Made by a program: the position numbers and the translations under genes. From contig OX597821.1 in assembly GCA_951406725.2 (NCBI GenBank), positions 110,546,001 to 110,610,000 of the forward strand: a stretch of 64,000 nucleotides of DNA, written 5' to 3'. Shown here one piece after another: positions 14,637 through 14,977 of this stretch (its first letter is position 1; each line of letters starts with the position of its first letter). Under the pieces are notes generated by a model. The model ran no database searches. It was given only the letters and a program-made list of their open reading frames with translations, and was not told the DNA's origin. The DNA is from Octopus vulgaris (lineage: Eukaryota).

Positions 14637-14977
14637 AAGAATGAATGTTTTTATATATAATGAACGTGAAACACAGGAAGGGACGAACACGGAACACAGA
14701 CAAATCATTCGAAGCCTTCAATCTTCAGTCAGACACCGAACCATCATAGCAAATTTCGGCTGTTCAATTCTGATATTTGCTCCAACTCGGCCAGCCCCAA
14801 GAAAAAAAACTAAGCTGTAAGCATTAGATTTCTTGGTAGAAGACAGGAATGTGAACGCACAAGACGGATGTAAACACAAGAGACGAAAACGAAATTGAAA
14901 ACGGTAATGAACAAACAAAACATATATAACGGTGGTTGTCATACGACTTTAGACCAAATGAGACAGAAACAACATGT
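14637..14977 (-). mobile_element. TA-flanked short element carrying a permuted hammerhead (family P1)
   Basis: Long (TA)n on both sides; homologous to 25560-25860. Confidence 0.7.
14722..14796 (-). ncRNA. Non-circularly permuted hammerhead ribozyme candidate
   Basis: Minus strand GGCTG-g-CCGAGTT-gg-AGCAAAT-A-TCAGA-attgaa-CAGCC-GAAA-TTTGCT-atgat-GGTTCGG-tg-TCTGA-CTGAAGA. Confidence 0.7.

What the first reader, a model, noticed from the sequence alone, without database searches (positions are those of the whole stretch)
14722..14796. Third permuted hammerhead copy shows compensatory indels in two helices
Seen, relative to the homolog at 25704: stem III is one pair longer on both strands (AGCAAAT/ATTTGCT), stem I is one pair shorter on both strands (TCAGA/TCTGA), and helix P changes to CCGAGTT/GGTTCGG while staying paired (with G-U). 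The triplet is AUA, and GAAA and CTGAAGA are unchanged. Inference: paired indels in distant strands are very unlikely under neutral decay and indicate selection on this pseudoknotted structure in the master elements.
Basis: seen in the sequence. Interest (0 to 1): 0.85.

Follow-up and report, generated by a model that had tools for sequence, protein, structure and literature searches.

The report
Rewired hammerhead ribozyme in octopus retroelements
Thousands of copies of a non-coding mobile repeat in this (likely octopus) genome carry the parts of a hammerhead ribozyme joined in an order that I did not find described, with the strand opened inside the catalytic core; the RNA is predicted to cut itself, and similar rewired hammerheads appear to be the ribozymes that Naiad retroelements were reported to lack.

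Summary
The motif is real: a hammerhead in non-circular order (site, GAAA, CUGAnGA) on the minus strand of a 718-bp non-coding tandem retroelement (537 anchor matches; 3,861 core-pattern matches, control 0). The indel claim is half right. Stem III gained one pair on both strands, once. Stem I did not lose a pair: two compensatory substitutions plus one mismatch explain it. Two copies alone give weak evidence (P=0.04); across subfamilies it is strong (90.5% paired, 13 pairs with double changes). Stem II's 5' strand lies upstream, not next to CUGAnGA, so the core is opened between A9 and G10.1 by a closing helix IV and a hairpin, outside the six-permutation scheme of Eckert 2023. Three more families unrelated by eye, including a Naiad 3' end, share this layout; the window holds four such motifs. 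5' ends of copies pile up ninefold just 3' of the predicted cut, suggesting cleavage in vivo; cleavage was not assayed. Read by eye, published nematode and spider Naiads carry type-CSG hammerheads. New variant of a known ribozyme, apparently unreported in animal genomes.

The parts
14633..14971 (-). 5'-truncated copy of family A retroelement (339 bp of a 718-bp non-coding tandem unit), fixed 3' end running into (TA)n
   Evidence: 96-98% to the unit taken from tandem array L016; flanked by (TA)n at 14570-14637 and 14977-15081
14839..14851 (-). Helix IV, 5' strands (CAUUC at 14847-14851, CUUC at 14839-14842); closes the whole domain
   Evidence: (95% and 91% paired over 32 copies, mostly one-sided changes)
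14797..14836 (-). Hairpin H, directly before the 5' strand of stem II
   Evidence: a hairpin at the same place in families G, H and the Naiad end
14792..14796 (-). Stem II 5' strand GGCUG (G10.1 at 14796); not contiguous with CUGAnGA
   Evidence: 149 of 160 cells paired vs 38 of 160 for the contiguous strand; 3 pairs with double changes
14784..14790 (-). Helix P 5' strand (equals the 'I' helix that joins stems I and II in type SGC/CSG)
   Evidence: 82% paired, 2 pairs with double changes; Eckert 2023 text
14774..14781 (-). Stem III 3' strand and AUA triplet; A17 at 14774; predicted cut between 14774 and 14773
   Evidence: sequence; 5'-end pile-up at -2..+13
14763..14773 (-). Stem I 3' strand UCAGA (14769-14773) and linker to stem II
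   Evidence: 96% paired, 4 pairs with double changes
14748..14762 (-). Block G: stem II 3' strand CAGCC, GAAA (14754-14757), stem III 5' strand UUUGCU
14736..14742 (-). Helix P 3' strand GGUUCGG (GAUUCGG in many family A copies)
14722..14733 (-). Stem I 5' strand UCUGA and core CUGAAGA (14722-14728)
14706..14719 (-). Helix IV, 3' strands (GAAG, GAAUG) following A9 after UU
25431..25874 (+). Family B copy (832-bp unit); homologous ribozyme domain about 25651-25792
57929..58045 (+). Family G motif: same split-core layout, unrelated sequence by eye (GUC site at 57993, GAAA 58007-58010, CUGAUGA 58034-58040)
6330..6400 (-). Decayed family H motif: same layout, unrelated sequence by eye (bounds approximate)

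Best explanation
The stretch is the core of a non-circularly permuted hammerhead fold, carried in thousands of copies by a non-coding tandem retroelement, that is predicted to cut its own RNA after the AUA at 14774 and likely yields the unit-length templates that a Penelope-like element copies into (TA)n repeats. Shown by sequence and covariation: the 5'-to-3' order is IV5', hairpin H, II5', P5', III3', UH, I3', linker, II3', GAAA, III5', P3', I5', CUGAnGA, IV3'. This is the cyclic order of types SGC/CSG, opened between A9 and G10.1, with G10.1-C11.1 kept. Also shown: copies share one 3' end at a TA-rich patch about 140 nt past the cut, have variable 5' ends, and occur as tandem arrays and inverted pairs. 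Inferred: the fold cleaves in vivo. Inferred, weaker: cut-to-cut monomers exist as linear and circular RNA; a nicked (TA)n target primes reverse transcription at the internal TA patch; a linear monomer gives the short copies ending at the cut, and a circle (or an uncut multimer) gives copies that run through the cut into tandem arrays. Inferred, weakest: the enzyme comes from a (TA)n-targeting Penelope-like element (Naiad or Neptune type). Odds: fold 0.95, cleavage at this site 0.85, circle-templated copying 0.55, Naiad as mobiliser 0.4.
For: Covariation on 32 natural copies: 90.5% of 1,551 cells paired vs 85.1+-0.4 shuffled and 27-47% slid; 13 pairs with double changes, 12 of them in stems I, II, III and P. 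At least 18 same-branch double changes on a tree from non-helix columns. Stem II 5' strand changes GGCUG/GGCCG/GGGCA in step with CAGCC/CGGCC/UGCCC. Three families unrelated by eye repeat the layout with helix IV, hairpin H and G10.1-C11.1: G, H and the Naiad 3' end (upstream stem II at least 4 of 5 paired in 18 of 19, 18 of 19 and 14 of 14 scorable copies, each from 30 loci); the family A-F profile finds no hit on the Naiad ends or on the window's G and H motifs. 5' ends: 30 in -2..+13 vs 14 in -85..-3 among 143 copies, rate ratio 9.0, p=2e-12; higher than in +14..+53 too (ratio 4.7, p=8e-8); holds in all three microhomology classes. The window was chosen on family A and repeated in family B (17 vs 11 ends, ratio about 6). 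20 distinct family A junction contexts continue into the next unit without a (TA)n run, 60 end in (TA)n. Type SGC and CSG ribozymes cleave in vitro, and the helix equivalent to P is required in SGC-3 (Eckert 2023). [quoted passage not shown] AUA is a natural triplet (abstract start in listing).
Against: No cleavage assay; no raw RNA reads. A hammerhead with helices inserted between A9 and G10.1 has no tested precedent that I found, and single extra C or G there is harmful in a viroid hammerhead (passage). Helix IV shows almost no double changes (1 cell), so it rests on one-sided changes and on recurrence across families. 'Pairs with a change on both sides' was not beyond the shuffles (74 of 500), and 'further pair types' lay below them. 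Rows of the alignment were picked by core-motif patterns, so core conservation in it is not an independent test. In families A/B, G and the Naiad end the strand after A9 can partly compete for stem II. Single-sequence folding z-scores are weak (-1.2 to -1.8). Most copies run through the cut site. No family A-H copy was seen joined to a reverse transcriptase frame in its own unit, the 30 Naiad ends fetched carry no recognisable Naiad frame by eye within 1.5 kb, and cephalopod Naiads are reported long inactive while family A is young.
Confidence: 0.75

Rival explanations
1. The fold is conserved for another use (binding or pausing of the reverse transcriptase, RNA stability) and no longer cleaves; 5' ends pile up because the enzyme stalls on helices.
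For: No assay. End rate is also somewhat raised in +14..+53 (ratio 1.9, p=0.04). Most copies pass the site. In Li et al. 2026, 8 of 9 predicted retrozymes did not cleave in vitro.
Against: The peak lies at -2..+13, which is single-stranded once downstream partners are copied, and falls off sharply at the cut (2 ends in -18..-3). Four families with different sequences keep both core boxes, a UH triplet and G10.1-C11.1 in correct register.
Confidence: 0.1
2. The active form is an ordinary type-SGC hammerhead: stem II forms with the strand after CUGAnGA (GGCU after a 5-nt bulge here), and the upstream strand plus helix IV is an inhibitory alternative, i.e. a switch.
For: The downstream register is 83.6% paired over the alignment and shows one column of apparent covariation. 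A near-contiguous stem II of at least 4 of 5 positions is possible in 17 of 19 family G and 14 of 14 Naiad copies.
Against: Truly contiguous pairing is 38 of 160 cells in A-F. The downstream register has a C-C mismatch in 14 of 32 rows. A near-contiguous stem II (0-2 nt skip) reaches 4 of 5 in 0 of 19 H, 0 of 10 E and 0 of 17 F copies.
Confidence: 0.08
3. The ribozyme assembles from two RNAs or two neighbouring tandem units (dimer), which would relieve the tight connectivity; single copies are inactive.
For: Units occur in tandem; metazoan and PLE hammerheads often act as dimers (passages); P and stem III are joined on both strands while P also links to stems I and II.
Against: Stem III is 4-7 bp, not the minimal palindromic type. 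All helices close within 140 nt under helix IV. Eckert 2023 reports SGC ribozymes with direct joins between the I helix and stem III, and its tested single-motif constructs cleave during transcription.
Confidence: 0.05
4. No selection: the paired changes are chance events fixed in a few master copies and spread by descent.
For: A vs B alone gives only P=0.04; one indel event; relatedness inflates cell counts.
Against: P=9e-5 (F vs B2) and 3.5e-5 (F vs A); at least 18 same-branch double changes; the same layout in three further families.
Confidence: 0.02

Closest known systems
Type-SGC hammerhead (HRIMA-1; Eckert et al. 2023, PMC10085705)
   Same: Block order site-GAAA-CUGAnGA; short linker from stem I to stem II; helix joining the far ends of stems I and II (here P).
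   Different: Stem II 5' strand is not next to CUGAnGA (the paper assumes block C cannot be interrupted); extra helix IV and hairpin H; P is joined to stem III on both strands. Known SGC ribozymes came from environmental sequence; the paper found none in genomes of known organisms.
Type-CSG hammerhead (Eckert et al. 2023)
   Same: Same cyclic order; the motif here is CSG re-opened between A9 and G10.1.
   Different: Only two metagenomic examples were reported. By eye, five published Naiad consensus ends (Parc, 3_Nbra, Hpol, Hcon, Smim) hold complete CSG folds.
Non-LTR retrozymes (Cervera and de la Pena 2020, PMC7229834; Li et al. 2026, bioRxiv 10.64898/2026.07.22.740005)
   Same: Non-coding head-to-tail units with one hammerhead each, proposed circular RNA templates, proposed mobilisation by Penelope-like elements.
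   Different: Defined by type I hammerheads and found with type I descriptors; units here are about 700-830 bp with a non-circularly permuted core.
Naiad Penelope-like elements (Craig et al. 2021, PMC8557442)
   Same: (TA)n targets, 5' truncation, tandem and inverted insertions; the octopus and squid Naiad ends show the same split-core layout.
   Different: No open frame and no sequence similarity to the Naiad end; the paper reports that Naiads lack canonical hammerheads and only marks 'half cores'.
Minimal type I hammerheads of Penelope-like elements (Cervera and de la Pena 2014, PMC4209133)
   Same: Hammerhead near the element's 3' end; G10.1-C11.1; an insertion between 9 and 10.1. The window's own example shares the GGCUG/AGCC-GAAA stem II.
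   Different: Circular (type I) order, 1-bp palindromic stem III, single-nucleotide insertion.

Membership tests
Hammerhead ribozyme | CUGAnGA, GAAA and NUH triplet present | tested here: met
   3,861 G-then-C pattern matches, control 0; alignment rows were picked by these motifs
Hammerhead ribozyme | Stems I, II, III in register around the core, with covariation | tested here: met
   96%, 93%, 94% paired with 4, 3, 3 double-change pairs
Hammerhead ribozyme | G10.1-C11.1 closing stem II | tested here: met
   27 G-C and 3 G-U of 32 rows; also in G, H and Naiad families
Hammerhead ribozyme | Site-specific self-cleavage | not testable with these tools
   indirect only: 5'-end pile-up
Hammerhead ribozyme (Rfam models) | Match to an Rfam hammerhead family | tested here: not met
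   no hammerhead hit at E<=10 on 14645-14970, as expected if the models hold only circular orders
Type SGC (Eckert 2023) | Order S, G, C with short stem I-II linker and I helix | tested here: met
Type SGC (Eckert 2023) | Block C intact: stem II strand within 1-2 nt of CUGAnGA | tested here: not met
   38 of 160 cells contiguous vs 149 of 160 upstream; so not filed as SGC, though it would work like one
Non-LTR retrozyme | Non-coding tandem units, one hammerhead per unit | tested here: met
   718, 832 and about 824 bp units
Non-LTR retrozyme | Type I hammerhead | tested here: not met
   order is non-circular
Non-LTR retrozyme | Expressed as linear and circular monomer RNA | tested here: inconclusive
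   no RNA holder on record; contigs only
Penelope-like element (non-autonomous) | Fixed 3' end, 5' truncation, tandem and inverted copies, microsatellite targets | tested here: met
Penelope-like element (non-autonomous) | Sequence shared with the end of an autonomous partner | tested here: inconclusive
   no similarity to the Naiad end; layout shared; no genome-wide search for another partner was run

The most novel reading that the evidence does not exclude
Non-circularly permuted hammerheads are the normal, overlooked ribozymes of Naiad-type retroelements and their non-coding parasites across invertebrates (type CSG in nematodes and a spider, a seventh 'split-core' topology in cephalopods), and the split-core form is an active ribozyme whose catalytic core tolerates the RNA's two ends, via a helix-plus-hairpin domain, between A9 and G10.1.
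Probability: 0.6. Interest if true: 0.92.

Novelty: new variant of a known kind. Interest (0 to 1): 0.84.

Why it matters
Non-circular RNA permutations were known only from environmental sequences and one weak bacterial case. Here they would be among the commoner ribozymes of an animal genome, in a topology that the published six-order scheme excludes. It would explain why Naiad elements seemed to lack hammerheads, mean that hammerhead and retrozyme surveys miss whole families, and show that the A9/G10.1 link can be opened, which is useful for ribozyme design. One transcription assay tests it.

Tried and rejected
Rfam: whole-window scan swamped by microsatellite hits; local scan gave no hammerhead. 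Sequencing runs: no RNA holder listed; this is no evidence either way. Laying contigs of 4 runs guessed to be RNA (4 studies) showed the unit joining back to its own start (back 718) in 4 of 4, as 748-nt contigs in two; a circle, a tandem transcript or DNA give the same picture, so it is not counted. Pattern scans of metagenome (23 stretches) and viral contigs (7): none has stems I and III of 3 bp or more; chance matches. Prokaryote genomes were not scanned. Paired deletion in stem I: rejected. Twister, pistol, HDV-like and hairpin folds: considered from recalled consensus only and dropped, since both hammerhead boxes are in register; no such Rfam hit. A reverse transcriptase frame inside the units: none seen; nearby Penelope-like fragments (L204, L202, L010) look like chance neighbours and gave no Pfam hit above cut-off. 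Earlier findings of the scan: nothing in 3 look-ups. Naiad ends with no permuted fold seen by eye in the last 600 nt: Naiad-3_Dst, Ppac, Sdum, Ppla, CGi, Mcor, and none noted at the ends of Omin, Adux, 1_Skow; Naiad-4_Dst was not seen. One search opened an unrelated paper through a wrongly recalled id; one search gave nothing useful.

Full report
Setting. The window is G000:C8:110546001-110610000 of a 2.8-Gb assembly. I infer an octopus genome: a motif from the published octopus Naiad end matches 494 times. The finding lies in a 339-bp, 5'-truncated copy (14633-14971, minus strand) of a 718-bp non-coding tandem unit, family A (537 exact anchor matches). The 25.7-kb homolog belongs to family B (832-bp unit; anchor shared with subfamily B2, 1,929 matches). 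Only about 140 bp round the motif stay about 81% alike between A and B; the rest barely aligns. Copies share one 3' end running into (TA)n, have variable 5' ends, and occur as tandem arrays and inverted pairs, the insertion pattern described for Penelope-like elements (Craig 2021, passages).

Observation. Core boxes, AUA triplet, helix P and the longer stem III are as stated. The stem III pair is a true two-strand insertion: 11 long/long, 89 short/short and 0 mixed among the first 100 listed of 5,197 matches (my note said 12/88, recounted here). It arose once, on the branch to A/A2, so co-segregation is descent. Stem I was not shortened by deletion: the strands align without gaps and subfamily A2 has six pairs. 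For the two window copies alone, pairing is kept by chance with P=0.04.

The fold. I aligned 32 natural copies of subfamilies A, A2, B, B2, B3, D, E and F: 31 of the 39 extracted plus the window's B copy; 8 were left out as redundant or bearing indels (L086, the second L091 unit, L199, L133, one L290 unit, L271, L268, L272). Rows were picked by core patterns. An eight-helix structure is 90.5% paired (shuffles 85.1+-0.4, 0 of 500; slid controls 27-47%), with 13 double-change pairs; that count alone was reached by 74 of 500 shuffles. On a tree built without the helix columns there are at least 18 same-branch double changes over 11 pairs, and F vs B2 gives P=9e-5. Stem II pairs with an upstream strand (149 of 160 cells) and not with the bases after CUGAnGA (38 of 160). 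A downstream register after a 5-nt skip is 83.6% paired but broken in 14 of 32 rows. The bases after A9 instead pair with the far 5' flank (helix IV, found also by RNAalifold and single folds), and a hairpin sits between IV and stem II. Helix IV has almost only one-sided changes.

Relation to known permutations. Eckert 2023 (parts 1-6 of 8 of the text read; supplement searched, no 'Octopus') defines six orders on the assumption that CUGAnGA and its flanking strands stay together. It validates SGC and CSG in vitro and found none of these in genomes of known organisms. The motif here has the SGC/CSG cyclic order, and P is their 'I' helix, but block C is split at A9/G10.1, so I do not file it as SGC. 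PLE hammerheads carry one extra base at that spot (Cervera 2014, passages); in a viroid hammerhead the effect of an extra base there depends on the base (review passage). The pseudoknot hammerhead of Zhan 2024 keeps the A9-G10.1 link as I read the passages.

Recurrence. A descriptor of this layout hits 4 places in the window and none in 20 shuffles. The 58.0-kb motif is family G (1,555 first-look candidates, unit about 824 bp); the 6.3-kb motif is a decayed copy of family H (167 candidates). Both, and the genome's Naiad 3' end, show the upstream stem II, hairpin, helix IV and G10.1-C11.1 in different sequences. Upstream stem II reaches at least 4 of 5 in 18 of 19, 18 of 19 and 14 of 14 scorable copies (30 loci each); a near-contiguous one does so in 17 of 19, 0 of 19 and 14 of 14.

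Naiads. Craig 2021 says Naiads lack canonical hammerheads and marks eight 'half cores'. Reading the supplement by eye (parts 1, 24, 25 and twelve 600-character contexts, two of which repeat no end of interest), Naiad_Ovul, Obim and Esco show the split-core form (Esco with one mismatch in stem II). Parc, 3_Nbra, Hpol, Hcon and Smim show complete type-CSG folds. Of the eight half cores, six fit, one (3_Dst) does not in the stretch seen, and one was not seen. These readings were not computed.

Sign of cleavage. Anchoring downstream of the motif, I mapped 5' ends for 73 family A insertions (94 copies held of the first 100 listed, arrays collapsed) and 70 family B/B2 copies (70 of the first 100 listed). 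30 ends fall in -2..+13 of the predicted cut and 14 in -85..-3: rate ratio 9.0, p=2e-12, and 5-13 within each microhomology class. The window was chosen on A and held in B. B ends near -130 to -148 mark subfamily divergence, not true ends, and lie outside the test. Stalling on helices remains a rival, but the peak covers a region that would be unpaired and stops at the cut.

Mechanism. Shown: fold by covariation, copy anatomy, pile-up. Inferred: self-cleavage after A14774; cut-to-cut monomers, some circularised as for retrozymes (Cervera 2020, passages); priming by nicked (TA)n at the unit's internal TA patch; linear templates give short copies, circles or uncut multimers give read-through arrays (20 continuing junction contexts vs 60 ending in (TA)n). 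The partner enzyme is unidentified; animal retrozymes are proposed to be non-autonomous PLE derivatives (Li 2026, parts 1-3 of 5 read; its supplements were closed). RNA data were uninformative.

Novelty. Searches for non-circular or permuted hammerheads with retrotransposons, octopus or Naiads found no report of this form or of such ribozymes in animal genomes. The library holds only open-licence papers and bioRxiv. Verdict: real, larger than first described, a new variant of a known ribozyme class; catalysis untested.

Noticed in passing
window 21692-21716 (-) and 22313 (+), with a short frame at 21678-21977: Minimal type I Penelope hammerheads in inverted arrangement round a GIY-YIG-like fragment (likeness recalled; no Pfam hit). 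Their stem II resembles that of families A/B, a possible hint at origin.
   Followed up: partly
window 42922 (-): Another minimal type I hammerhead (CUGACGA, short stem II, GAAACGUU), likely the end of a Neptune-type element.
   Followed up: no
Craig 2021 supplement File S5: Five nematode and spider Naiad consensus ends hold complete type-CSG hammerheads by eye; the spider one has an extra U between A9 and stem II.
   Followed up: partly
L361, L362: A Naiad-end copy begins exactly at its predicted cut after a (TA)n run.
   Followed up: no
L062, L072, L074, L025: Inverted 5' partner copies whose junction lies within about 12 nt of the predicted cut.
   Followed up: partly
L010:1786-3159 (+): Open frame of 458 aa with reverse-transcriptase-like motifs, resembling a Penelope-like (Hydra-type, recalled) element; no Pfam hit above cut-off.
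   Followed up: no
units of families A, B, B2, E (L016, L055, L199, L129): Short motifs keep their order outside the ribozyme (TA patch then GCGG, pyrimidine tract, ACGCCAGCT, AGTCG..AGAC) although the units barely align; possible promoter or enzyme-recognition elements.
   Followed up: no
window 26164-27922 (-): Broken LINE-type reverse transcriptase frames (likeness recalled).
   Followed up: no
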